DNA of 24,469 nt, taken from the NCBI GenBank assembly GCA_048938445.1, contig JBHLME010000065.1, positions 1 through 24,469 on the forward strand, written 5' to 3'. The translations under genes and the position numbers were made by a program. The notes under the pieces were generated by a model that worked only from the letters and a program-made list of their open reading frames with translations, made no database searches and was not told the origin of the DNA. This document shows positions 341-24,467 of this stretch, piece by piece (positions within the stretch are counted from its first letter, which is position 1; every line of letters starts with the position of its first letter). This stretch comes from Promethearchaeota archaeon. GTDB taxonomy: Archaea; Asgardarchaeota; Lokiarchaeia; Sigyniarchaeales; SOKP01.

Positions 341-2434
341 ATGAAAATAACAAAGCTTCAATTTAAGAATTTCATGGGATATCACAATTTAAATTTACCG
401 AAAAACGAAGAAATATTTCCAGAAGGTTTAATTGTTATTAGTGGAAGGAATTCGTATGGAAAATCGACAATTTTAGAAGGCATTTTATTTGCTTTTTTTG
501 GACCAAGTATATTTATTGGAAGAAAAGCAGATTCATTTATAACTTATGGTCAAGATCAAGCAGAACTTTATGTATTTTTTATTCTTGATAATATAAAATA
601 TTATATTTTTCGTAAATGGGGCAGGACTGGAAGTACAAGTATAAAATTATTCGAAATGGAAAAAAGGAGTAATAAATATCGGGAAATTAAAGATTTTAAC
701 CTAACAGAATTTTTTGAGATTTCAAAAGAACAGGCGTTAAATACTGTTTTTGTTCGACAAGGAGAAATAGAAGAATTAGCAAATATAAAGGGAGCTCAAC
801 TCAGAGATATGTTAATTAACTTATTTAGACTCGATATCATAGATGATTCATTAAAATATTTAGATCAGGAAATGAAATTGAAAAAACTAGAAAAATCAAA
901 AATAGAAAAAACTAAAGTACCAATTGAAAGAATAGAAGCAGATATTAATCGCGTTAAACAACAGGTTGAAAATGATACAAAGGAAGTTCAAAATAATAAA
1001 AGAAAGAAAAAAGATTTAGAAAAAGAATTAATGAGATATCCTCCTAAAAATTTAATTTCTGAATTGGAGAATCAATATAGAAATAAAGATATTGTTGAAG
1101 AAAAATATAAATCATATAAGCAGAATTTTGAATCAAAAATTCAACAATCTGGTTTTAATGTCAAGGATTTTTCTTCAATAGAGAAGATTGACCATACCCT
1201 AAGGTTAAAAGATAACGCAAAATCTCAATTAGAGGAAATATTAAGTGAATTAAATAAAAAAAAGCAAGCAACTATAAGAGGTAAAGGGATTACAAGAGGA
1301 AAAATAAATGATTTATCTGAAAACATAAATTTAATGAAAGAGAGTTTTTCTTTCGAGGAAAAAAATGGTAAAAGTAAAATAGCAAAGTGTCCAACTTGTC
1401 AGAGTGAGTTAACTAAGGAGCATTATGATGAAATGATGAAAAAATTTGAAAATGAACTCAAATTAAAAGAAAAAAAAATGGTTACAATAACTGAACTAAT
1501 AGAAGGTATAGAGATAGAAATTAAAGGTCATCAGGAAGAATTAGATAGCATCAAAAGACATATTGCTACTATTCAAGGACTTAAGTACGATTATTCAAAT
1601 TATCATGTTCATGAGAAAGAAGTAATGCAAATTCAACATGAAATTGATAAATTTATTAGAGAAAATAAAATTCTCTTTAAAGAAACAAATTCAAAATCAC
1701 TTAAAAGTCTTAGAGAACAATCAGAAAAGATTATTAATGAATTAAAATTAATAGAAAAAGATATTACCAAAAGAATTGAGGATATTGAATCAAATGAAAA
1801 GCGAATAAAAGAACTTACTAAAGAAATTGAAAAAATGAAAGAGTTAGAAAAAAAAATTGGTGATATTGAAATAGATCTTGAGCATTTCATAAAAGCAAAA
1901 GAGTACGTGCGTCGATTTGTCACTGAATATATGGTTGTAAAGCGTTTGGTTAAAAATATAGCATTAAAAACTGATAGATATATAAAAGATTTTACATCAG
2001 GGCAATATAGTGATTTAATTTTAGATTTATTTGGAACTAAAAAAACTGGTCTTTCTTTAAAAATAAAAGATCATTTTAATGGACAATATGAATCAATAGA
2101 AGTTTTATCAGGAGGAGATCGAACTGCTCTAGGAATCGCATTAAGATTGGCTATAAGTGAACTAATGAGCATCATTCGACCGACTAAAGAATCACCTAAA
2201 AAAAATCCCAAAATCAACTTTCTTTTATTAGACGAACCATTAGCGGCTTTAGATGAGAACCGTAGAGAGCGAATCTTAAAATATTTAATTAAATCTAAGA
2301 CCTTTTCTCAGATTTTCTTGATTACTCACACAGCAATACCACCAGATATTCAAACACATAAAATATTAGTAGAAAAAGACCATTCTAATGGTCAAAGTAA
2401 TGCCCGATTTGAAAGAAGTCAAATATTATATTAA
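341..2434 (+). CDS. rad50: Rad50/SbcC SMC-family ATPase (697 aa)
   Basis: Walker A GRNSYGKST, Q-loop VRQGEI, coiled coils, central zinc hook CPTC (aa 350-353), signature LSGGD, Walker B/D-loop LLLDEPLAALD, H-switch ITH. Confidence 0.92.
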   Translation: MKITKLQFKNFMGYHNLNLPKNEEIFPEGLIVISGRNSYGKSTILEGILFAFFGPSIFIGRKADSFITYGQDQAELYVFFILDNIKYYIFRKWGRTGSTSIKLFEMEKRSNKYREIKDFNLTEFFEISKEQALNTVFVRQGEIEELANIKGAQLRDMLINLFRLDIIDDSLKYLDQEMKLKKLEKSKIEKTKVPIERIEADINRVKQQVENDTKEVQNNKRKKKDLEKELMRYPPKNLISELENQYRNKDIVEEKYKSYKQNFESKIQQSGFNVKDFSSIEKIDHTLRLKDNAKSQLEEILSELNKKKQATIRGKGITRGKINDLSENINLMKESFSFEEKNGKSKIAKCPTCQSELTKEHYDEMMKKFENELKLKEKKMVTITELIEGIEIEIKGHQEELDSIKRHIATIQGLKYDYSNYHVHEKEVMQIQHEIDKFIRENKILFKETNSKSLKSLREQSEKIINELKLIEKDITKRIEDIESNEKRIKELTKEIEKMKELEKKIGDIEIDLEHFIKAKEYVRRFVTEYMVVKRLVKNIALKTDRYIKDFTSGQYSDLILDLFGTKKTGLSLKIKDHFNGQYESIEVLSGGDRTALGIALRLAISELMSIIRPTKESPKKNPKINFLLLDEPLAALDENRRERILKYLIKSKTFSQIFLITHTAIPPDIQTHKILVEKDHSNGQSNARFERSQILY

Positions 2435-2456
2435 GGATCATTTGATTGCCCTCAAG

Positions 2457-2471
2457 TTCTTTTTCTTTTTT
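2457..2471 (+). terminator. putative oligo-T terminator after rad50
   Basis: TTCTTTTTCTTTTTT about 22 nt after the rad50 stop; archaeal intrinsic terminators are T-tracts. Confidence 0.35.
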
Positions 2472-2518
2472 AAATAAAATATCAAAAACATTAAATATAA
2501 TGTGATAAGTGAAATACT

Positions 2519-3934
2519 ATGGCGAAAAAAAAAGCTCATTCAATAAATATTAACGGGGAGCAATTTAAATTACTCATGCAATCGATGACAATCACAAATT
2601 TAAAAGAAGTGATAAATCACTACAATGAAAAATATGTAGTAAATAACACCAAAACAGAAAAATTGAAGGGTTTTTCTTCTTTAAAAAAGGAGGAATTAAT
2701 TGATTTCATAGATTCTGCTATTAAAGATAAAGAAAAACAAGAACTATATAAGAAATTTGAACCTAATGTTACAAAAAAATTAGTTCAAGAAGCATTATCA
2801 TTAATTAGTGGAGAACATAAAGTAGAGAAGGTTCAACAAGCTTCAATAACACCTGGCGGCAAGGGATATAAAATTTGGTTTAAAAGTAAATATGGAATGC
2901 ATGAAACGTCCGTTGAAATTACGAATGATGGTGTAGAACGGAGTTGTGACTGTCGATTATCAAAATTAGGAGGTATTTGCATACATCAAATAGCAATTTA
3001 TTTGATGCTAATAAATAAGAAGGTTATAACGCTGTCAAACTTACCCTTTAAAGTAACTAAAAAGACTTTTGATCCTATTCAAAAAAGGTTAGATTTAATT
3101 GCTACCCAAAGTTTATTTAAAGAAGAACCTGCGATAATGCTTTCAAACGGATATAAGATATATGTTAACGGGGATATAGTAACTTATGAATGGACAGGAG
3201 ATTTTCCTGGAAAAAATACAAGAGATTTTTCAGTAGAGGATGGTGATGTTGATTCATGGATTTGTAATAAAATAGTTGAAGTAATGTTAAAACACATTAA
3301 AGTTAAGACAAAGGAAGGTACTCCCGAAAAGATTGTTATTGATTCTTATAGCGTGGTTGAAAAAATAATTGAAAGAGAAAATTTGGTAAAAAAAATTCTT
3401 AGAAAATTTAATGCCTTAGAAGATCCTTCATTACCATCAAATAATGAGGAATTAGAAGAATTTTTAAAAAGTGATCTAAAAGAAAGTGTTTCAGTAGTAA
3501 AAATGACACCACCATTTAAAGCTTATGATGGAAATGATCCATTTTTGTTTGTTAGTTATACTCATAAAGATAAACCTATTGTTTATCCTATTATAAAAAA
3601 ATTACATAAAAATGGAGTAAAAATTTGGTATGATGAGGGTATCCCTCTTACTACTGATTGGGGTGATATTTTAGGCCAGAAGATTATTGATTGTGATCTT
3701 TTCGTGTCATTCATTTCTCCTAATGTAAATAATTCTGATAATACTCAAAAAGAAATTAAATATGCATGCTTGAAGAAAAAACCATATATTTCAATCCACT
3801 TAGAAGAAACAAACTTAAATCCTGGAATAGAAATGATCTTGCAAGACATTCAAGGTATCCTGAAATACAAAATGGACGATGATACATTTTATAGCAAATT
3901 AATTGAAGAAATTAATCAACTACTACCATTATAA
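2519..3934 (+). CDS. HeH/Rho_N-like + SWIM zinc finger + C-terminal TIR domain protein
   Basis: N-terminal MTITNLKE...LKGFSSLKKEELIDFI resembles Rho_N/HeH. SWIM motif CDC-x8-CIH starts at aa 143. TIR_2-like domain FLFVSYTHKD...IWYDEGI...FVSFISP...QKEIKYA from about aa 331. Confidence 0.8.
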   Translation: MAKKKAHSININGEQFKLLMQSMTITNLKEVINHYNEKYVVNNTKTEKLKGFSSLKKEELIDFIDSAIKDKEKQELYKKFEPNVTKKLVQEALSLISGEHKVEKVQQASITPGGKGYKIWFKSKYGMHETSVEITNDGVERSCDCRLSKLGGICIHQIAIYLMLINKKVITLSNLPFKVTKKTFDPIQKRLDLIATQSLFKEEPAIMLSNGYKIYVNGDIVTYEWTGDFPGKNTRDFSVEDGDVDSWICNKIVEVMLKHIKVKTKEGTPEKIVIDSYSVVEKIIERENLVKKILRKFNALEDPSLPSNNEELEEFLKSDLKESVSVVKMTPPFKAYDGNDPFLFVSYTHKDKPIVYPIIKKLHKNGVKIWYDEGIPLTTDWGDILGQKIIDCDLFVSFISPNVNNSDNTQKEIKYACLKKKPYISIHLEETNLNPGIEMILQDIQGILKYKMDDDTFYSKLIEEINQLLPL

Positions 3935-10362: not shown

Positions 10363-11562
10363 TTATTGTTCTAATGCTTTTAAAATTAGATCCGTTAAAT
10401 CAAGCATCTTTATATTAGATCCGAGCAATTCAATAGCATCAGATAGATTCCTATAACAAAAAGGACATGTACTCACGAGATATTTTGCACCTGTTTTTAC
10501 TGCATCTTCTATTCGATTTTTAGCTATTTCAATTGATAGCTCTGGGAATCCTTTTTTAACCCCTCCTCCAGCACCACAACACATTGCTGATTCTCTATTC
10601 GTATCCATTTCAATGAAGTCGGAGATTTCATTTAATATTATTCTTGGAGCATCATAAACACCCATGTGCCTGCCAAGATGACATGGGTCGTGATAAGTTG
10701 TTTTTATACCTAGATTTTTCAATTTAGAACTGTTATTTTTAATGAAATCTGCTAAAAATTCTACAGTATGTAAAACTTCAATATCTTTTAATTTTTCTAG
10801 ATAATCTTTTTTCAAGGTTCGATAACAACCTGCACAACTAGTAATAATTTTTTTTATACCTCGTTCTTCGAATAATTTAACATTTTTTTCAGCGACATTT
10901 TCGAAAGCTTTCCTATCTCCTGTTCTCATCGCCACGCTTCCACAACAAATTTCTTTTTCACCAAATACACCGAAATTAATACCTAATTTATTTAATATTT
11001 TAGCAGTATCTATTGCGACGTTTTGAATCTGGGGTGTTAAAGCAGCAGTACACCCTACAAAATATAAAATTTCCACATCTTCTTGAATTGCATCTTTTAT
11101 CTTGAAATCTAATTTTTCAATCCAGTTGCTTTTTTCTTTATTATCTCGCTCATAGGGGTTCAATAATTCAACAAGAGCTCTATTCATGGGAATCTGTGCT
11201 TCAATTGGATAACCCGCTTCTACTAAATCCGCCCTTAAAGCCTCAAATACATTCACGTGATCAATCCAATCATGAGTTTTAAACTTGACATATTCATTGT
11301 GGGAATTATGACAAAAATCTTCACAAGAACCACATAATGTACATTGAAAAATTATATCGCTTATCTCTTGGCTTAATTCTAAATCACCCCAAAAGAGCCC
11401 TTTCAGGATCATATTTTTACCTCGTGAAAAAAAAGGTTCAAATTTCGGTGTAATATCCGTTTTTAATACAGGACAAACATAATAGAATCCTTTCTCTGGC
11501 CAATTTGCAGCCCTACATTGCCCACATTGAACACATGCTAATGCTGCCTCTTTTACATGCAT
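10363..11562 (-). CDS. Fe-S oxidoreductase, GlpC/HdrD/GlcF-like (two 4Fe-4S motifs plus two CCG domains)
   Basis: CVQCGQC, CTLCGSCEDFC, YFVGC, EICCG, TSCAGC, YHDPCHLGR, MCCGAGGG, STCPFC. The true start may lie upstream at 11613/11616. Confidence 0.9.
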   Translation of the reverse strand: MHVKEAALACVQCGQCRAANWPEKGFYYVCPVLKTDITPKFEPFFSRGKNMILKGLFWGDLELSQEISDIIFQCTLCGSCEDFCHNSHNEYVKFKTHDWIDHVNVFEALRADLVEAGYPIEAQIPMNRALVELLNPYERDNKEKSNWIEKLDFKIKDAIQEDVEILYFVGCTAALTPQIQNVAIDTAKILNKLGINFGVFGEKEICCGSVAMRTGDRKAFENVAEKNVKLFEERGIKKIITSCAGCYRTLKKDYLEKLKDIEVLHTVEFLADFIKNNSSKLKNLGIKTTYHDPCHLGRHMGVYDAPRIILNEISDFIEMDTNRESAMCCGAGGGVKKGFPELSIEIAKNRIEDAVKTGAKYLVSTCPFCYRNLSDAIELLGSNIKMLDLTDLILKALEQ

Positions 11563-11628
11563 TAAATTCTTTAGTTGAGTTTTAGTATCTTCTTGTTTTT
11601 TCTCTACTTCTATAATTTACCTCACCAT

Positions 11629-13131
11629 TTAATAATGATCTGTCAAATAAAACTTCCCAGGACTTAAAATTCCATTGGGATCGAGTGCTTTTTTCATTGT
11701 TATCATAAAATTGTAATATTCTTCACTTAAAGCGCCAGAATCTACTAATGTACGTCCGATTATTTCACCCATCCAATAATGAACACCGCCTAATTCTTTA
11801 ATTTGCATTGTTAACAAATCTTTCCATAATTCCTCTTGAAGTTCTCTGTTTTCTCTATTGGTAGTAAAGGAAAGACCTCCAGTAACATCAAGATAATTTG
11901 GATGGACTCCAAACACTATGAATTCAGCACTAGCATTGCCAAGTGATAAGAGTTTTTTGGAATTTTTCCTGTTAAATTCATCATATAATTCAACATATTT
12001 GGGCAATTGATTAGTCCTACACTTTAAACAAGTCCCGCAAGAAGTAGTATCTGCACCAACAAGCCCCCAATATATGTGAGCCCATTGCCATCTACCATTC
12101 TCCTCATAAAACCATTTTGCAATATTCCCATCTTCTACGTTAGACCCAAAATCTTTAAGATCCATCCCTTTTGCCATTTTTTCAATTTTTTCTACTTGAA
12201 TATCTAATTCCTTTTGCGTGTCAGCTACGGTGACATAAAATAATACGCTTCCCTTTATTCTCTTATCTGCCCATCCTTGAACTAACCTTATTCCTTTCAA
12301 GTACATCGCATACTGCCTCGTATAGTAATAAAAATCATGAATCGGAACTTGCGAATGTTGCCATTTCATCATAAGTTCTGATGCTTTTACATATTCTTTC
12401 ATTTCAGGGGTGTTTCTAATTTCATAAGTATTATATGCAGCATATTCGGGAATTGGATATAAATTAAAGGATGCTTTTGTTTTTATTCCATGAATCCCCA
12501 CATCACCTAGAAATAATCCACTATAATCTGGACCTAATCCAAATCTAGTAAAAGGCTTGTCGCAAAAAGAATTTGCTTTTGCACCAGTAAAAATGAGTTC
12601 TCCAGTAGGTAAAACCACTTCTAATCCAACACATTGTTCTGTTACTGCACCATACATCGCCGCACCACCGCCTCCAACTGTATTATTGGAAAGACCACCA
12701 CCTATTGTTGCTGAGAAGCCCGAACCAGGACCAGTTGAGCCTGTGTAGTAACCAATACCTACTTTGCTTAATTGTTCACATAATTCACTCCATGAGATAC
12801 CAGTCTCAACTGTTACTATTAAACTTTCCTCATCAACATCTAAAATTTTATTCATTCTGGTTAAGTCGATTACAACACCTCCATCACCAATAGGTTTAGC
12901 CCCACCAGTTAGATCTGCTCCACCACCTCGTGGTATGAGTTTAATTTTTTCTTTATTTGCAACTTTTATTATATCCGCTACCTCTTCAGCATTACCCGGC
13001 CTTACTACGACATCGGGAATTCCCTGCAAGACAGTATCACAATTCATTGAATAAGAATAACATATGGGTTTTGAATCAGAGACATACTTAGTTCCTACAA
13101 TATCTTCTATTTTTTCATAAACATTTTGCAA
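11629..13131 (-). CDS. FAD-binding oxidoreductase, VAO/PCMH superfamily (GlcD/D-lactate-dehydrogenase-like)
   Basis: PDVVVRP, PRGGGADLTGG, ATIGGGLS, GLEVVLPTG, GIHGI and LDPNGILSPGK motifs; TTG start. Confidence 0.88.
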   Translation of the reverse strand: MQNVYEKIEDIVGTKYVSDSKPICYSYSMNCDTVLQGIPDVVVRPGNAEEVADIIKVANKEKIKLIPRGGGADLTGGAKPIGDGGVVIDLTRMNKILDVDEESLIVTVETGISWSELCEQLSKVGIGYYTGSTGPGSGFSATIGGGLSNNTVGGGGAAMYGAVTEQCVGLEVVLPTGELIFTGAKANSFCDKPFTRFGLGPDYSGLFLGDVGIHGIKTKASFNLYPIPEYAAYNTYEIRNTPEMKEYVKASELMMKWQHSQVPIHDFYYYTRQYAMYLKGIRLVQGWADKRIKGSVLFYVTVADTQKELDIQVEKIEKMAKGMDLKDFGSNVEDGNIAKWFYEENGRWQWAHIYWGLVGADTTSCGTCLKCRTNQLPKYVELYDEFNRKNSKKLLSLGNASAEFIVFGVHPNYLDVTGGLSFTTNRENRELQEELWKDLLTMQIKELGGVHYWMGEIIGRTLVDSGALSEEYYNFMITMKKALDPNGILSPGKFYLTDHY

Positions 13132-13176
13132 TTAGTTCACATTCCACATATTTTATTAAAATTAAAAAATAATAGT

Positions 13177-13917
13177 TTATTCAAGAACCACTCCATTAGG
13201 AAGTATCATGTCACATTGGACATAGAATGCAGATAAGTCAGTATCAGCATGTTGAAATATTTCATGGCAAATATCATACTTTGAATATTCCGTGTTTACA
13301 AAATTTACTTTTGCACTCATTTTCGTCTTGAAGTTATCAAATTTCAAATATGTTGCCGTCTTTTGTTTGAGTACTGGATTTGAGTTATCAGTAATATCAG
13401 GAATGATTTTCAAGTTGTATAATGGCATTAGACTCTCGATCATTGCTTTAGGATCTAACTTTGGTGGTTCATCAGAAACCTCAACTTCCATATCAAGAAA
13501 TTTAATACCTCTTCTGGTTAAACTACCTCTTACCTTGTTATCTTTTAATTCTGAGAGTTGAATATCTGCAATTTTCTTAGGATATCCCCAAATTTCTCTT
13601 CCAGCACAAAGGGCATCATCAGTAGTTACGTAGATGTTTAACACAAATAAACCCATTTTATTACCATGTTTACATGTTAACATTATCAAGGATTCATTAT
13701 AAGGGCCAATTGTCGTGTCCGGATATTCTGTAATAAAAAGAACATCTGAAGTTCTCAAGGCTCTGAAACCTGGAGGTAAATACTTCTTTTTAACGTCTAA
13801 TGGCGTTTGAAATAAAGATATAATTGCTCTCATTTGTGGATAATGGTAAGGAGGGGGAGGAAATAACCCACATTGATGAGGCATTGAATAATCTATCTGT
13901 TGTTCATATTCTACCAT
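13177..13917 (-). CDS. acetoacetate decarboxylase-like superfamily protein
   Basis: YPDTTIGPYNE and AGREIWGYPKK (Schiff-base Lys) motifs. Confidence 0.88.
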   Translation of the reverse strand: MVEYEQQIDYSMPHQCGLFPPPPYHYPQMRAIISLFQTPLDVKKKYLPPGFRALRTSDVLFITEYPDTTIGPYNESLIMLTCKHGNKMGLFVLNIYVTTDDALCAGREIWGYPKKIADIQLSELKDNKVRGSLTRRGIKFLDMEVEVSDEPPKLDPKAMIESLMPLYNLKIIPDITDNSNPVLKQKTATYLKFDNFKTKMSAKVNFVNTEYSKYDICHEIFQHADTDLSAFYVQCDMILPNGVVLE

Positions 13918-20002: not shown

Positions 20003-20533
20003 TTAATATTCGATACCATATCGAGCGTTAATCCCTTGGGAGGAATAATAATGCTTTATCATCTTCATTTCAGTTAGCAAATCCGCTCTCTCTTTAATTT
20101 TAGGGTGAATTTTTTGCCCACCTGTTAAAATTAATTCTACATTATCAGGTTTTAAGTCAATTAATGCGAGAACATCTTCAATATTGACAATATTCATTTC
20201 AATCGCCACCCCCACCTCATCTAATATGACGATATCGTATTCATTACTGGTGATGATTTCTTTTGCAAAATCAAGTGCTTTCTTACCTTCATTTAAATCA
20301 ATTTCTCCAGGCACCTCAATTAATTCAGGAGTTCCAAACTGTTTGAGCTCGAAATTTGGATTTTGATCAATTGCTTTAACTTCTCCATACTTAGTATTTC
20401 CTTTCATGAATTGTATCATATAGACCTTAAAACCATGACCAGTTGCACGAAATCCTTGTCCCAATGCTGCTGTAGTCTTACCCTTACCTCTACCGAAATA
20501 CACTTGAACTAATCCTCGTGTTAATTTCTTCAT
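20003..20533 (-). CDS. cobO: cob(I)alamin / cob(I)yrinic acid a,c-diamide adenosyltransferase (CobA/CobO/BtuR family)
   Basis: YFGRGKGKTTAALG P-loop, IQFMKG, VILDE, ADLLTEM..IKH, ARYGIEY. Confidence 0.92.
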   Translation of the reverse strand: MKKLTRGLVQVYFGRGKGKTTAALGQGFRATGHGFKVYMIQFMKGNTKYGEVKAIDQNPNFELKQFGTPELIEVPGEIDLNEGKKALDFAKEIITSNEYDIVILDEVGVAIEMNIVNIEDVLALIDLKPDNVELILTGGQKIHPKIKERADLLTEMKMIKHYYSSQGINARYGIEY

Positions 20534-21273: not shown

Positions 21274-22134
21274 ATGGGAACTAGTAAACTAATGTCGTTA
21301 GAAGAGGCGATTTCTGAACATGTCCAAGATGGCGATCTTGTAGGGATAGGGGGATTATCATTTTGGAGAAAACCTGTTAGTGCTTGCCGGGAAATCATCC
21401 GACAACAAAAAAAGAATCTATCAGTATGTACCTTTGTAGGGGGTATCGAAGTCGACATGCTCATTGCAGCAGCATGCATTTCTGAAATAAGAGCGTCTTT
21501 TGTAGGAATGGAAGTGTTTGGCATGGCACCGAATTATCGAAAGGCTATAGAGAATGGTAGGATCAAGGTCTCAGAAGAGAGTGAAGCTTCAATCGCATTA
21601 GGTCTTAAATGTTCCTATTTAAAAGTTCCCTTCATGCCTTTAAGGGGTATCATTGGAACGGACTTTTCTAAGGTGCGAAATGATATAAAACAATTTAAAG
21701 ATCCATTAGGTTCTGGAACTCAATTAATGGCACTTCCAAAAATTGACTTAGACGTTGCTATTTTACACGTGCCTCAAGCGGATGAATATGGAAATGGAAA
21801 CATCCCTGGAGCCGTGTGGCTTGATGATGATATGGCAAAAACAGCAAAAAAAACAATAATTACCTGTGAAAAATTAGTGGAAACAGAAGATATTATAAGA
21901 GCTCCTGGTAAAGCACAATTACCCATGCAAACTACCAAAGCTGTTGTCAAAGTTCCCATTGGAGCTCACCCAACATCATGCTATCCCCTTTACACGTTTG
22001 ATGCACGACATATTCAAGAATATCTTAAAATGGATTTTAATGAATACAAAAAAAAATACATTGATCTAAAGACTCACGCACAATATTTAGAAAATTCTGG
22101 TGGTGCAAAAATGATATTGGACATATTTTTATAG
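21274..22134 (+). CDS. family I CoA-transferase-fold protein, alpha subunit (GctA/IpdA-like)
   Basis: GIGG....RKP, VPFMP, DVAILHVPQADEYGN and GAHPTSC motifs. Confidence 0.88.
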   Translation: MGTSKLMSLEEAISEHVQDGDLVGIGGLSFWRKPVSACREIIRQQKKNLSVCTFVGGIEVDMLIAAACISEIRASFVGMEVFGMAPNYRKAIENGRIKVSEESEASIALGLKCSYLKVPFMPLRGIIGTDFSKVRNDIKQFKDPLGSGTQLMALPKIDLDVAILHVPQADEYGNGNIPGAVWLDDDMAKTAKKTIITCEKLVETEDIIRAPGKAQLPMQTTKAVVKVPIGAHPTSCYPLYTFDARHIQEYLKMDFNEYKKKYIDLKTHAQYLENSGGAKMILDIFL

Positions 22135-22149
22135 GAGTAGATAAAGAAA

Positions 22150-22851
22150 ATGGTAATTGATGCTGAAACAATAAAGAAGAAGGTAATTCAACTAGGTGCC
22201 GACATGTGTGGTATAGCGAATGTTTCTAGGTTTAAAAATGCTCCGAAAGGTTTTCATCCACGTGATATTTATCCAGAATGTAAATCAGTAATAGTTTACT
22301 TTTCCCATTTTCCTTTAAGCAGTTTACAAGCCAAAACTAATTCACCTTATACATTAATTCGAAACATGATGGTAAATAAGCTAGACTTGATTTCATTTCA
22401 TTTATGTGATGATTTAGAACACCATAGAATTACATGCGTTCCCATTCCATCTGCTGAACCATATGATTACTGGGATTCTGAGAGAAAGCATGGGAGAGGA
22501 ATACTTTCATTAAAACATGCTGCAAATCTTGCAGGTCTTGGAATAATTGGAAAAAACACTCTTCTCATAAATGAAAAATTTGGAAACATGATATGGTTAG
22601 GTGCTATTATCGTATCTACTGAATTGGAGCAAGATCCAATTCCAATCTATGATGGTTGTAATGAAAAATGCACGTTATGCATGGATTCATGTCCACAAAA
22701 TGCACTCGATGGAACCACACTTGATCAAGAACTTTGTAGGGAAAGATCAATTTCAACAACAGAGGGGGGTAGTTGGGTTCTTTCATGTAATATTTGTAGG
22801 AAAGTTTGCCCTAATTATAAAAGTATCCATAAAAAACAAACAAAAAAATAG
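22150..22851 (+). CDS. QueG/reductive-dehalogenase-like 4Fe-4S dicluster protein
   Basis: LGADMCGIA, SLKHAANLAGLGIIGKNTLLI..FG, CNEKCTLCMDSCP, CNICRKVCP; lacks the C-terminal extension of full-length QueG. Confidence 0.8.
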   Translation: MVIDAETIKKKVIQLGADMCGIANVSRFKNAPKGFHPRDIYPECKSVIVYFSHFPLSSLQAKTNSPYTLIRNMMVNKLDLISFHLCDDLEHHRITCVPIPSAEPYDYWDSERKHGRGILSLKHAANLAGLGIIGKNTLLINEKFGNMIWLGAIIVSTELEQDPIPIYDGCNEKCTLCMDSCPQNALDGTTLDQELCRERSISTTEGGSWVLSCNICRKVCPNYKSIHKKQTKK

Positions 22852-22879
22852 TCATATAAAATTATGAGGTAAAAAATTA

Positions 22880-23764
22880 ATGACAGAATATTCTAAAGAT
22901 TATACAATTGATGAGCTGATAACTATCTTAATGGCCAGAGAAGTAAATAATGATGACGTGATGATTGTTGGTGTAGGAACACCATGTGCCTGGGCAGCAT
23001 TTACTTTGGCAAAACTAACCCACGCTCCAGACGCAATATACCATTATATAATGGGGAATACATTCGTCTTGGAACCACGCCAAGTATCGCTATTATACTT
23101 GGAAATGAATACTTCCAGAGCATATCGATTTCAGAGTACAGGTGAATGCACTTTAGAAAGCTTGCCTTCAGATACTCTTACGACGATAGAATTTTTTAGA
23201 CCTGCACAAGTTGATCAATATGGAAATACTAATAACATATGTATTGGAGACTGGAACAATCCAAAAATAAGATTTCCGGGGTGTGCAGGTATCGCGGATT
23301 TTTCAATGTTTTACAAGCGAGGATCTTTCCTTTATACTCCACGACATGATATAAAAACATTTGTTCCAACTGAAAAACTGGATTTTATATCAGGTGTCGG
23401 ATTTTTGGACGGGAAAAATAGTATTTGTGGTGGTTCTGGACCACAGTGTATGATAACCAATTTAGCTTATTTAAATTTTGATGAAAAAACTAAAAAAATG
23501 AGGGTGGAGAGTATTCATCCTGGAGTAGAACTTGACACAGTAAAAGAATCCACGGGATTTGCCCTAATAATTCCCAAAGATCTAAAGAAAACAAAACCCC
23601 CAACAGTAAAGGAAATTGATCTATTGAGAAAAAAAGTAGATCCCTTAAGTATTAGAAAGCTAGAAGTTTTATCAGGGAAAAAGAGGGAAGAACATCTAAA
23701 TGAAATTATTAATGAAGAACTTAGAATGGTAAATAAATTTCCAAAACTCTTAAAAACCGAATAA
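22880..23764 (+). CDS. family I CoA-transferase-fold protein, beta subunit (GctB-like)
   Basis: AQVDQYGNTN, RFPGCAG, DFISGVG, ITNLA, SIHPGV...TGF, LRKKVDP; GAGGT SD. Confidence 0.88.
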   Translation: MTEYSKDYTIDELITILMAREVNNDDVMIVGVGTPCAWAAFTLAKLTHAPDAIYHYIMGNTFVLEPRQVSLLYLEMNTSRAYRFQSTGECTLESLPSDTLTTIEFFRPAQVDQYGNTNNICIGDWNNPKIRFPGCAGIADFSMFYKRGSFLYTPRHDIKTFVPTEKLDFISGVGFLDGKNSICGGSGPQCMITNLAYLNFDEKTKKMRVESIHPGVELDTVKESTGFALIIPKDLKKTKPPTVKEIDLLRKKVDPLSIRKLEVLSGKKREEHLNEIINEELRMVNKFPKLLKTE

Positions 23765-23783
23765 ATACTTTAATTATATAATC

Positions 23784-24467
23784 TCAAGTATCATTTCCAT
23801 TTAGATATAATTCCACATTTCTACCTTTACGTCTATGAGAAATGATGTTCTCTTGGATTAATTTATCAACATGATATTTCACTGAACTTCGACTTATTTC
23901 TAATTCAGAAGCAACCATACTGGGATTTATTCCAGGATTATTTTCAATTTTATCTAATACCTTCATTGTTGTTTTAGATTTGATGAGGAGGATGTTATAA
24001 CTCTGATTTATATCTTGCGATATAAATGAAGGAAAGAAGAGAGAAAATTGTCCTTCTTTTTTTTTCTTAATCAATCCATATTGGATTAATATTTGCAGAT
24101 GCCATTGAAGCTGTCCTTTTTGTAAATTGCACTGTCGAAGGAGTTCATTATTATGAATTCCGGGAGTATTAATAATTTTTTGTAATATTGTCGAACGATA
24201 TTCATTCCTAATAACATCTTTTATACTTAACCGATGATTCCCTATAATAGAAGGATTTTTATTGAGAAAATCTTCTAAATCTAATCTACCAAAGGAATTG
24301 GGAAATTTATTTTTATCAAGGGAGCTATTACCTATGTATATATGTTCGAATAGGAGAGTATCATTGATGAAATCAAATAATATCTTACTACTATAAATTT
24401 CATAGGTTGTACAATTTGATATGGAATTTATCGTAAAATTTAAGCATAACCAAGTTGATTGATTTAA
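23784..24467 (-). CDS. tandem winged-helix-turn-helix transcription regulator, 5'-truncated
   Basis: Manual translation shows the frame open from the window edge (LNQSTW...HRLSIKDVIRNEYRSTIL...PGIHNNELLR...QLQWHL), followed by a second wHTH (PGINPSMVASEL...VKYHV). The ORF track captured only the last 96 aa. Confidence 0.8.
   Translation of the reverse strand, partial: LNQSTWLCLNFTINSISNCTTYEIYSSKILFDFINDTLLFEHIYIGNSSLDKNKFPNSFGRLDLEDFLNKNPSIIGNHRLSIKDVIRNEYRSTILQKIINTPGIHNNELLRQCNLQKGQLQWHLQILIQYGLIKKKKEGQFSLFFPSFISQDINQSYNILLIKSKTTMKVLDKIENNPGINPSMVASELEISRSSVKYHVDKLIQENIISHRRKGRNVELYLNGNDT

What the first reader, a model, noticed from the sequence alone, without database searches (positions are those of the whole stretch)
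21274..23764. CoA-transferase-fold pair with a rewired active site: possible IpdAB-like C-C hydrolase rather than a transferase
Seen: the beta subunit reads APDAIYHYIMG. Aligned by eye to glutaconate CoA-transferase GctB (APDCHIIVESG, catalytic Glu54), the Glu position is Ile57 (ATA, 23048-23050). The alpha subunit reads VSEESEAS with Glu104 (21583-21585). Established: class I CoA transferases need the beta-subunit Glu to form the enzyme-CoA thioester, whereas the cholesterol ring-cleaving hydrolase IpdAB uses an alpha-subunit Glu (Glu105, REMDEGM context) for retro-Claisen hydrolysis. Inference: this archaeal pair is not a CoA transferase and may hydrolyse or ring-open a beta-keto or cyclic acyl-CoA.
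Basis: partly seen in the sequence, partly recalled or inferred. Interest (0 to 1): 0.75.

Follow-up and report, generated by a model that had tools for sequence, protein, structure and literature searches.

The report
Lokiarchaeal CoA-transferase look-alike, not a transferase
Two neighbouring genes of an Asgard archaeon encode an enzyme built like a CoA-transferase that has lost the residue such transferases need and carries an acidic residue where a known ring-opening hydrolase has its catalytic one, so it probably does another, still unknown, reaction on a CoA-bound acid.

Summary
The window is an Asgard (Promethearchaeota/Loki-type) contig. Alpha (21274-22134) and beta (22880-23764) are glutaconate-CoA-transferase (GctAB)-family subunits. 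Beta Ile57 sits at the position of GctB Glu54 and AibB Cys56. Alpha Glu104 aligns with the Glu of IpdA's REMDEGM. Both features hold in all 120 clade homologs of each subunit and in more distant orthologs.

The same genome carries a second, canonical pair (beta Glu, alpha Asn).

Across 38 alpha/beta pairs, alpha position 104 is Asn/Gln/His in all 15 beta-Glu pairs. It is Glu in 9 and Gly in 6 of the 23 Glu-less pairs. So the site has at least three signatures: transferase, IpdAB-like and AibAB-like. This pair has the IpdAB-like one.

"Not a ping-pong CoA-transferase, alpha-Glu catalysis" is well founded.

In its GTDB family the pair often lies between a corrinoid adenosyltransferase gene and a MeaB/B12-dependent acyl-CoA mutase with an atypical substrate pocket.

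The Fe-S gene between alpha and beta looks like an incidental insertion.

This is a new variant of a known kind, of moderate interest.

The parts
21274..22134 (+). alpha subunit, 286 aa, GctA/IpdA-like CoA_trans fold
   Evidence: ORF. PF01144 at 60 bits. PDB matches: GctA 7e-39, IpdA 7e-29, AibA 3e-19.
21574..21585 (+). codons for alpha Glu101-Glu102-Ser103-Glu104. Glu104 (21583-21585) is the IpdA-Glu-equivalent and the proposed general base.
   Evidence: Sequence. Each Glu is 120/120 conserved. Alignment to IpdA REMDEGM. Residues 101 and 103-105 touch beta 136-140 in the predicted complex.
22880..23764 (+). beta subunit, 294 aa, GctB/AibB-like CoA_trans fold without the catalytic Glu
   Evidence: ORF. 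PF01144 at 44 bits. PDB matches: GctB 1e-26, AibB about 1e-17, IpdB 6e-12.
23042..23062 (+). codons for beta His55-Tyr56-Ile57-Met58-Gly59-Asn60-Thr61. Ile57 (23048-23050) replaces the Glu of the transferase E-x-G motif.
   Evidence: Residues 58-61 are in the predicted interface.
23072..23104 (+). beta Glu65 (23072-23074), Arg67 and Glu75 (23102-23104): conserved charged residues on the loop after the old catalytic position. Glu75 is the open alternative carboxylate.
   Evidence: At least 99% conserved in 120 homologs and kept in 52-71% identity orthologs. Residues 71-73 and 75-76 are in the interface.
22150..22851 (+). gene between alpha and beta: 233-aa QueG/reductive-dehalogenase-like protein with a two-[4Fe-4S]-type motif. 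It lies in the same transcription direction but is probably an incidental insertion.
   Evidence: Family and PDB matches. Found between alpha and beta in 0 of 79 related loci. Its orthologs in 5 other genomes of the family are not within 1.5 kb of alpha or beta. The arrangement is bridged by one 2580-base contig of another sample.
20003..20533 (-). ATP:corrinoid adenosyltransferase (CobA/BtuR), the recurrent divergent neighbour of alpha
   Evidence: PF02572 at 1e-54. Present in 28 of 79 related loci by ORF clustering.

Best explanation
The two genes encode a heterodimeric enzyme of the glutaconate-CoA-transferase (GctAB) family that no longer works as a ping-pong CoA-transferase. The beta-subunit glutamate that must form the enzyme-CoA thioester is replaced by Ile57. 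The alpha-subunit position that is Asn/Gln in real transferases has become Glu104, the position where IpdA (the cholesterol ring-C hydrolase) has the Glu that its depositors mutated.

Proposed mechanism:
- An acyl-CoA binds non-covalently in the cleft between alpha and beta.
- Its thioester is polarised by the retained Gly-rich loops.
- Alpha-Glu104, helped by Glu101/Glu102, acts as general base/acid on the acyl part, driving enolate-type C-C bond chemistry.
- The most likely reaction is IpdAB-like hydrolytic (retro-Claisen) or lyase cleavage, less likely decarboxylation.

The substrate is not a steroid fragment. In this archaeal family it is probably tied to the product or substrate of a neighbouring atypical adenosylcobalamin-dependent acyl-CoA mutase.

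Shown: loss of the nucleophile, conservation and interface position of alpha-Glu104, covariation of the two positions, and gene neighbourhood. Inferred: that Glu104 is catalytic, the reaction type, and the link to the mutase.
For: 1. Residues and alignment.

2. Conservation. Ile/Val/Met57 in 120/120 and Glu101/102/104 in 120/120. The alpha E-E-x-E motif is kept at 52-71% identity.

3. The query keeps the family-wide invariant and near-invariant residues of the 60-sequence beta alignment (A44, D112, N118, P241, G134, G137 and others), so an intact binding site is likely.

4. Predicted alpha/beta complex with CoA riding along: ipSAE 0.90 against a best control of 0.00. That mark was reached by 58 of 80 solved complexes and 2 of 110 mismatched pairs. 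Run agreement was at least 91% and partner pLDDT at least 89. Alpha 101 and 103-105 touch beta 136-140, and beta 58-61 are in the interface. By the alignments, beta Ala136/Gly137 correspond to AibB Ala133/Gly134, which line the acyl pocket according to PMC7756340. A pass here may come from memory of the solved GctAB and IpdAB complexes.

5. Covariation in 38 pairs. With beta Glu (15 pairs), alpha 104 is Asn 12, His 2, Gln 1, Glu 0. Without beta Glu (23 pairs), it is Glu 9, Gly 6, other 8. Fisher p = 0.006, though kin are not independent. The Gly-Tyr signature of AibA recurs in four other Asgard pairs (L100, L104, L108, L115), so the AibAB-like and IpdAB-like signatures can be told apart, and this pair has the latter.

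6. The same genome has a canonical pair on another contig (beta ...LTEAG..., alpha Asn).

7. IpdAB, with the same two features, showed no CoA-transferase activity with acetyl-, propionyl- or succinyl-CoA (PMC5380842, passages) and is described as a retro-Claisen hydrolase (PMC6678751, passage).

8. Context in 79 related loci: CobA in 28, MeaB in 24, mutase B12-binding subunit in 17, mutase large subunit in 15. Four loci read CobA-alpha-beta-MeaB-B12 subunit-mutase with nothing between.

9. In a 201-genome sample of the phylum, orthologs of beta and of that mutase were found in the same two of 27 families only (f1 and f19).
Against: - No substrate or activity is known.
- None of IpdAB's pathway partners was found by the Pfam/NCBIfam scans of the window's ORFs and of the recurrent gene families around the pair.
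- Both subunits score higher against GctAB than against IpdAB, so this is not an IpdAB ortholog.
- In a beta-subunit tree the alpha-Glu class falls in at least 3 separate groups, so an alpha Glu need not mean one chemistry.
- Conserved beta Glu75 and Glu65 could still supply a carboxylate near the old catalytic position. I had no coordinates to test this.
- The mutase link is weak. All adjacent cases come from one GTDB family. In family f19 the genes are not within 10 kb. Within f1 the split is 29 genomes with both, 4 with beta only, 5 with the mutase only and 3 with neither. In the window's own genome the mutase cluster is on another contig.
- The catalytic role of IpdA Glu105 is recalled from Crowe et al. 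2018, which was not held.
Confidence: 0.45

Rival explanations
1. AibAB-like decarboxylase. The pair binds a carboxylated acyl-CoA (for example methylmalonyl-, glutaconyl- or 3-methylglutaconyl-type) and releases CO2 through a thioester-stabilised enolate, with Glu104 at most a proton shuttle.
For: AibAB is a solved Glu-less member of this family that decarboxylates 3-methylglutaconyl-CoA (PMC7756340, read in part). The beta subunit resembles AibB locally: THAPD...x-V/M-G-S/N and P-G-x-A-G. Carboxyltransferase PF01039 was not found in the window's genome (96.5% complete) and was found in only 1 of 41 genomes of its family. The genome nevertheless has a canonical methylmalonyl-CoA mutase paralog (Tyr/Arg signature, contig C186), so a non-biotin decarboxylase would fill a gap. 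Thiolase and MaoC hydratase genes recur nearby.
Against: AibA has Gly-Tyr where this alpha has the invariant Glu104. A distinct AibA-like signature class exists in other Asgard pairs. The mutase next to the pair lacks the Arg that binds a substrate carboxylate (Tyr89 to Phe, Arg207 to Tyr, His244 to Asn), so the neighbouring pathway is probably not methylmalonyl-CoA. The genome has 11 crotonase-family genes that could supply a YgfG-type decarboxylase.
Confidence: 0.2
2. Another Glu-dependent enolate reaction on an acyl-CoA: an epimerase/racemase, a double-bond isomerase or a hydratase, working beside the B12 mutase.
For: Three invariant alpha Glu residues plus invariant beta His55 and Glu75 offer two-base chemistry. 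No methylmalonyl-CoA epimerase above the TIGR03081 cut-off was found in 41 of 41 genomes of the family (best 52.7 bits against a cut-off of 114.95).
Against: No precedent in this fold is known to me. Many weaker VOC-family matches could be the epimerase. This cannot be told apart from the best explanation by sequence.
Confidence: 0.15
3. Still a CoA-transferase, with the nucleophile moved to alpha Glu104 or beta Glu75.
For: The fold and the family-wide conserved residues are intact. Glu104 replaces the Asn/Gln next to the Gly-rich loop. My recollection, from no call, is that in SCOT the equivalent Gln helps hold the thioester carbonyl, so a carboxylate there would be close to it. Public annotations call the proteins CoA-transferase subunits.
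Against: IpdAB has the same arrangement and showed no transfer. No transferase with a relocated nucleophile is known to me. The genome keeps a canonical pair. Alpha Glu never accompanies beta Glu in the 15 transferase-type pairs.
Confidence: 0.1
4. A non-catalytic CoA- or nucleotide-binding protein (regulator, or chaperone for the B12 enzymes nearby).
For: The neighbours are strikingly B12-related: CobA, MeaB, the mutase, and a corrinoid protein with its RACo activase.
Against: There is very tight conservation of a cluster of acidic and His residues at the subunit interface, and of the substrate-loop glycines.
Confidence: 0.05

Closest known systems
IpdAB (COCHEA-CoA hydrolase of Mycobacterium/Rhodococcus; PDB 6co6, 6co9, 6coj, 6con)
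   Same: Two-subunit GctAB fold. The beta catalytic Glu is missing (Gly57 in IpdB; Ile57 here). There is an alpha Glu in an E-x-x-E-[A/G] motif at the same aligned position.
   Different: E-values are only 7e-29 (alpha) and 6e-12 (beta; C-terminal half only in the single-sequence search). It is archaeal, with no steroid-pathway neighbours. It has two extra invariant alpha Glu residues, plus beta His55, Glu65 and Glu75. The substrate is unknown.
Glutaconate CoA-transferase GctAB (Acidaminococcus fermentans; PDB 1poi)
   Same: Best overall sequence match for both subunits (7e-39 and 1e-26; profile searches 4e-47 and 1e-62). Same subunit sizes and order.
   Different: GctB Glu54 is replaced by Ile57 and the GctA Gln by Glu104. 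Beta carries about 35 extra C-terminal residues that contact alpha in the model.
AibA/AibB 3-methylglutaconyl-CoA decarboxylase (Myxococcus xanthus; PDB 5mzw-5n03)
   Same: Glu-less beta (Cys56). Similar beta motifs THAPD...VG and PG-x-AG. A beta Glu (Glu72) lies near the old catalytic position, as Glu75 may here.
   Different: AibA has Gly-Tyr where this alpha has Glu104-Ala. Matches are weaker (3e-19 and about 1e-17). No HMG-CoA synthase or AibC-type reductase was seen nearby.
Canonical paralog in the same genome (contig C161 of G000)
   Same: Same family, with adjacent alpha and beta genes.
   Different: Beta has the T-E-A-G motif with Glu and alpha has Asn at position 104. Identity to the window's pair is 25-28%.

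Membership tests
Pfam CoA_trans (PF01144) / GctAB structural family | Both subunits match the family model above its curated cut-off and resemble solved GctAB-type chains | tested here: met
   60 and 44 bits against a cut-off of 23. PDB matches to 1poi, 6co6 and 5mzw.
Pfam CoA_trans (PF01144) / GctAB structural family | Alpha and beta form a heterodimer | tested here: met
   Prediction only: ipSAE 0.90 against a best control of 0.00. The mark was reached by 58 of 80 solved and 2 of 110 mismatched pairs. Run agreement at least 91%, partner pLDDT at least 89. The pass may reflect likeness to solved complexes.
Class I (ping-pong) CoA-transferase, as a function | Beta-subunit catalytic Glu in the E-x-G motif (GctB Glu54) that forms the enzyme-CoA thioester | tested here: not met
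   Ile57, or Tyr54 in the alternative alignment. 0 of 120 homologs have Glu.
Class I (ping-pong) CoA-transferase, as a function | Alpha Asn/Gln at position 104, as in all 15 beta-Glu pairs examined | tested here: not met
   Glu104.
Class I (ping-pong) CoA-transferase, as a function | CoA transfer between carboxylic acids | not testable with these tools
   Needs an enzyme assay.
IpdAB ring-cleaving hydrolase | Beta Glu absent and alpha Glu at the REMDEGM position | tested here: met
IpdAB ring-cleaving hydrolase | Orthology or close sequence relation to IpdA/IpdB | tested here: not met
   GctAB scores higher than IpdAB for both subunits.
IpdAB ring-cleaving hydrolase | Steroid ring C/D catabolic gene context (EchA20, IpdC, IpdF, FadA6, FadE30; list from PMC5380842) | tested here: not met
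   Neighbour families in 79 loci and in the window are CobA, DUF169, nitroreductase, MeaB, mutase, corrinoid protein and others.
IpdAB ring-cleaving hydrolase | Retro-Claisen hydrolysis of a cyclic beta-oxo-enoyl-CoA | not testable with these tools
   Needs an enzyme assay.
AibAB decarboxylase | Beta Glu replaced by a small or neutral residue, and alpha Gly-Tyr at positions 104/105 | tested here: not met
   The beta part is met (Ile57). The alpha part is not met (Glu-Ala). The Gly-Tyr signature is seen in other Asgard pairs.
NCBIfam named CoA-transferase equivalogs (PcaI/ScoA, AtoD) | Score above the curated cut-off | tested here: not met
   Alpha scores 23 bits against 128.5 and 16 against 315. 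Beta has no match.

The most novel reading that the evidence does not exclude
The Glu-less pair and the neighbouring atypical adenosylcobalamin acyl-CoA mutase (Tyr89 to Phe, Arg207 to Tyr, His244 to Asn) together form a previously undescribed Lokiarchaeal pathway. A B12-dependent carbon-skeleton rearrangement of a non-carboxylated acyl-CoA would be followed by alpha-Glu-catalysed C-C cleavage in a CoA-transferase fold. This would be a third chemistry for the fold, after IpdAB and AibAB.
Probability: 0.2. Interest if true: 0.75.

Novelty: new variant of a known kind. Interest (0 to 1): 0.45.

Why it matters
Proteins of this clade are annotated in public records as CoA-transferase or glutaconate CoA-transferase subunits. 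Metabolic reconstructions of Asgard archaea that rely on such labels would credit them with a reaction this pair almost certainly cannot perform.

The two-position signature found here (beta 57 and alpha 104) separates transferase-type, IpdAB-type and AibAB-type members. Only 16 of the 137 nearest 50%-identity cluster representatives have the beta Glu. A large part of the family is therefore mis-named and functionally open.

If the link to the atypical B12 mutase holds, it points to a new piece of acyl-CoA metabolism in the archaeal lineage closest to eukaryotes.

Tried and rejected
- **Methylmalonyl-CoA decarboxylase partner of MCM.** This was attractive at first: synteny with "methylmalonyl-CoA mutase", no PF01039 and no epimerase. 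I downgraded it when the adjacent mutase proved to lack the Tyr89/Arg207/His244 signature.
- **QueG-like gene as functional partner.** Rejected. It lies between alpha and beta in 0 of 79 loci, and its orthologs elsewhere are not adjacent to the pair.
- **Nitroreductase as obligate partner.** It lies between alpha and beta in 22 loci. However, 35 of 66 loci have alpha and beta directly adjacent, and 6 loci have all four threonine-pathway genes (ACT, homoserine dehydrogenase, threonine-synthase-like, HAD) in the same slot. The slot therefore tolerates unrelated insertions.
- **Conservation across Asgard phyla.** Record titles name Thor-, Odin-, Hermod-, Hod- and Helarchaeota. In the 201-genome GTDB sample, matches of 73% identity or more were confined to one family (f1) and matches of 54-55% to f19. 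I therefore do not claim phylum-wide conservation.
- **Expression.** No RNA holder was listed.
- **Independent contigs.** Contigs of other studies (X3, X4, X8) cover parts of the region but do not bridge the alpha/mid/beta junctions. Only X2, from the same study as the possible source, does.
- **IpdAB primary paper.** Not held by DOI or by PMC id. A search for IpdAB together with Glu105 found 0 papers.
- **Literature on this clade.** "Lokiarchaeota + glutaconate CoA-transferase" gave 1 preprint that mentions only horizontally transferred Gct genes. "Asgard + methylmalonyl-CoA mutase + CoA-transferase" gave 2 unrelated hits. I found nothing in print on this clade with these searches.
- **Superposition of a model on 1POI/6CO9/5MZZ.** Not possible, because no coordinates are returned.
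- **Placing GctB, AibB and IpdB in the tree.** Not possible. PDB sequences are not stored proteins, and all three score below the 150 representatives returned.
- **f19 neighbourhoods.** Uninformative.
Full report
**What is there**

The window is a low-GC contig (about 25-38% GC). Its best protein matches are MAG proteins labelled Promethearchaeota, Lokiarchaeota and other Asgard names. Three genes lie head to tail on the + strand:
- alpha, 21274-22134, 286 aa;
- a 233-aa Fe-S protein, 22150-22851;
- beta, 22880-23764, 294 aa.

The gaps between them are 15 and 28 bases. Alpha and beta both pass Pfam CoA_trans. Neither reaches any named NCBIfam transferase equivalog.

**The observation**

ATA at 23048-23050 is beta Ile57 in APDAIYHYIMG. 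GAA at 21583-21585 is alpha Glu104 in VSEESEAS.

The best solved relatives are:
- glutaconate CoA-transferase (1poi: alpha 7e-39, beta 1e-26);
- IpdAB (6co6: alpha 7e-29, beta 6e-12);
- AibAB (5mzw: alpha 3e-19, beta about 1e-17).

A 60-sequence profile aligned to these chains puts GctB Glu54, AibB Cys56 and query Ile57 in one ungapped column. PMC7756340 (first of two parts read) states that AibB Cys56 replaces the Gct catalytic Glu. PMC5380842 (passages) states that GCT Glu54-beta is the essential residue and that IpdB has Gly57 there. The pairwise phmmer alignment places a 3-residue gap differently and puts Tyr54 there. Either way there is no Glu.

On the alpha side, Glu104 aligns with the Glu of IpdA REMDEGM. 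GctA has Gln there and AibA has Gly followed by Tyr. PDB entry 6coj differs from 6co6 by Ala at that very residue. This fits my recollection that Crowe et al. 2018 named it Glu105 and found it catalytic. That paper was not held.

**Conservation**

In 120 clade homologs of each subunit (73-100% identical):
- beta 57 is Ile 117, Val 2, Met 1;
- beta His55, Tyr56, Met58, Gly59, Asn60 and Thr61 are 120/120;
- beta Glu65, Arg67 and Glu75 are at least 99%;
- alpha Glu101, Glu102 and Glu104 are 120/120.

Orthologs at 65-71% identity (records titled Helarchaeota) and at about 52% (GTDB family f19) keep alpha E-E-x-E and beta M-G-N-T...E-x-R. Their beta 57 is Ile or His.

**The wider family**

Of the 137 nearest 50%-identity cluster representatives of beta that are at least 230 aa long (150 were returned; 13 shorter ones were dropped), only 16 have Glu in the catalytic column. 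Being Glu-less is therefore common in this part of the family.

The window's own genome (4.6 Mb, 96.5% complete, 8.2% contamination) has a second pair on contig C161. That pair has the canonical beta ...LTEAG... and alpha Asn.

I collected alpha/beta pairs from five sources:
- the three solved enzymes;
- the own-genome paralog;
- 13 fused alpha-beta representatives;
- 20 adjacent pairs from other genomes of the phylum;
- the window's own clade, counted once.

I picked the 20 from the hit list to spread over genomes, before seeing their residues. I left out other listed matches that had stop codons, sat at contig ends, or came from genomes already taken.

| Pairs | Alpha position 104 |
|---|---|
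| With beta Glu (15) | Asn 12, His 2, Gln 1, Glu 0 |
| Without beta Glu (23; window clade counted once) | Glu 9, Gly 6, other 8 |

Fisher p = 0.006. Relatives are not independent, so this is indicative only.

Four Glu-less Asgard pairs (L100, L104, L108, L115) carry alpha Gly-Tyr, as AibA does. The site thus shows three signatures: transferase (E/N), AibAB-like (x/G-Y) and IpdAB-like (x/E). The window's pair is of the third kind.

In a 37-row beta tree:
- the beta-Glu sequences form one group (support 100/99);
- the alpha-Glu class falls in at least 3 groups;
- the window groups with its Hel and f19 orthologs and, less firmly (94/85), with a fused protein P0337 that has the same EESEAS motif.

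GctB, AibB and IpdB themselves could not be put in the tree.

**Predicted complex**

Alpha and beta, with CoA riding along, gave ipSAE 0.90 in all three runs against a best control of 0.00. That mark was reached by 58 of 80 solved complexes and 2 of 110 mismatched pairs. The runs agree in at least 91% of contacts, and partner pLDDT is at least 89. Solved complexes of this family exist, so the pass may be from memory. It shows likeness rather than proof.

The model is still useful. Alpha 101 and 103-105 touch beta 136-140, the P-G-C-A-G-I-A-D loop. Beta 58-61, 71-73 and 75-76 are also in the interface. By the alignments, beta Ala136/Gly137 correspond to AibB Ala133/Gly134, which PMC7756340 places beside the substrate. 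Glu104 therefore sits at the acyl pocket.

Beta Glu75 is also at the interface. It aligns within 3 residues of AibB Glu72, which hydrogen-bonds Cys56 in the crystal. I had no coordinates.

**Gene neighbourhood**

79 related loci were fetched; many are cut by contig ends.
- Alpha and beta are directly adjacent in 35 of the 66 loci that hold both.
- 22 loci have a nitroreductase-family gene between them.
- 6 have a block of threonine-pathway genes there.
- None has the window's QueG-like gene.

Orthologs of that gene (49-64% identical) were fetched from 5 other genomes of the family. They are not within 1.5 kb of alpha or beta. A partial ortholog in a sixth genome (G150) was not checked. I read the gene as an incidental insertion. 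The arrangement itself is real: one 2580-base contig from another sample covers 21828-24407 without a difference.

Recurrent neighbours by ORF clustering are nitroreductase 34, DUF169 32, an HVO_0163-type HTH regulator 32, CobA 28, MeaB 24, mutase B12-binding subunit 17, mutase large subunit 15, and a DUF2284/corrinoid-protein/RACo/acyl-CoA-ligase block in 11-16 of 79 loci. Four loci read CobA, alpha, beta, MeaB, B12 subunit, mutase with nothing between.

In the window, CobA is at 20003-20533, with one AhpD-like gene between it and alpha. The orthologous mutase cluster of this genome lies on another contig, C240.

**The mutase**

The large subunit next to the pair matches 2-hydroxyisobutyryl-CoA mutase best (4r3u, 1e-129) and methylmalonyl-CoA mutases less well. 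At the positions of P. shermanii Tyr89, Arg207 and His244 it has Phe, Tyr and Asn. At HcmA Asp117 it has Ala. The meaning of these positions is recalled; 5req in the PDB differs from 1req by Phe at position 89.

This signature is the same in all pair-adjacent orthologs that cover each position (13 or 15 of 16). The same genome also has a Tyr/Arg (canonical) paralog and a Phe/Gln (isobutyryl-type) paralog. The adjacent enzyme is therefore an atypical acyl-CoA mutase and probably does not act on a carboxylated substrate.

In a 201-genome sample of the phylum:
- beta orthologs (52% identity or more) were found only in families f1 (33 of 41, including the window's genome) and f19 (6 of 6);
- orthologs of this mutase (69% or more) were found only in f1 (34 of 41) and f19 (5 of 6).

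Within f1 the split is both 29, beta only 4, mutase only 5, neither 3. In f19 the two are not within 10 kb. The link is suggestive, not strong.

**Gap analysis**

Carboxyltransferase PF01039 was not found in the window's genome and was found in only 1 of 41 genomes of the family. No match reached the methylmalonyl-CoA epimerase cut-off in any of the 41. Eleven crotonase genes are present. This keeps a decarboxylase or epimerase role possible but does not single out this pair.

**Verdict**

The pair is a conserved, very probably active enzyme of the GctAB family with the IpdAB-type active-site signature.
- It is not a member of the functional class of ping-pong CoA-transferases; a defining feature was tested and not met.
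- It is not an IpdAB ortholog.
- It most likely uses alpha Glu104 for general-base chemistry on a non-covalently bound acyl-CoA.
- Hydrolytic or lyase C-C cleavage is my first choice. Decarboxylation is the main rival.

Searches of the held literature found nothing on this clade.

Noticed in passing
own genome contig C240:6475-8148 (not in the window); L063:9543-11216 and 14 other loci: An acyl-CoA mutase large subunit with an unusual substrate pocket (Phe, Tyr and Asn at the positions of MCM Tyr89, Arg207 and His244; Ala at HcmA Asp117). The signature is the same in all orthologs that cover those positions. In the phylum sample it was found only in GTDB families f1 and f19. It may be a new mutase specificity.
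   Followed up: partly
window 22150-22851 (+): A QueG/reductive-dehalogenase-like Fe-S protein is wedged between alpha and beta only in this genome. Elsewhere the slot is empty or holds a nitroreductase gene or threonine-pathway genes, so the slot seems to tolerate insertions.
   Followed up: yes
L017, L021, L022, L023, L033, L035, L053, L062, L073 and others, downstream of beta; own genome C240:12298-17784: A recurrent block of DUF2284 (metal-binding), a corrinoid protein (MtgC/MtbC-like), a RACo reductive activase and an AMP-forming acyl-CoA ligase. Together with CobA, MeaB and the mutase, it makes the region a cluster of B12-dependent functions.
   Followed up: partly
L100, L104, L108, L115 (genomes G023, G096, G052, G011): Other Asgard families carry Glu-less pairs with the AibA-type alpha Gly-Tyr signature and beta I-L-G. 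These are candidate AibAB-like decarboxylases in archaea.
   Followed up: no
whole genome G000 and 40 genomes of its family: Carboxyltransferase PF01039 was found in only 1 of 41 genomes, and no match reached the methylmalonyl-CoA epimerase cut-off, although a canonical methylmalonyl-CoA mutase paralog is present (own genome contig C186). How methylmalonyl-CoA is made or consumed is unclear.
   Followed up: partly
window 341-3934 (+): An SMC/Rad50-like ATPase (697 aa) is followed by a 471-aa protein with a C-terminal TIR domain. This may be a defence gene pair.
   Followed up: no
window 10363-13917 (-): An acetoacetate-decarboxylase-family gene lies next to an FAD-binding oxidase (GlcD-like) and an HdrD-like CCG/Fe-S protein.
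   Followed up: no
window 23784-24467 (-), runs off the contig end: A double winged-helix regulator (HVO_0163 N-terminal HTH plus MarR-like) lies convergent to beta. Homologs lie near the pair in 32 of 79 loci, so it is a candidate regulator.
   Followed up: no
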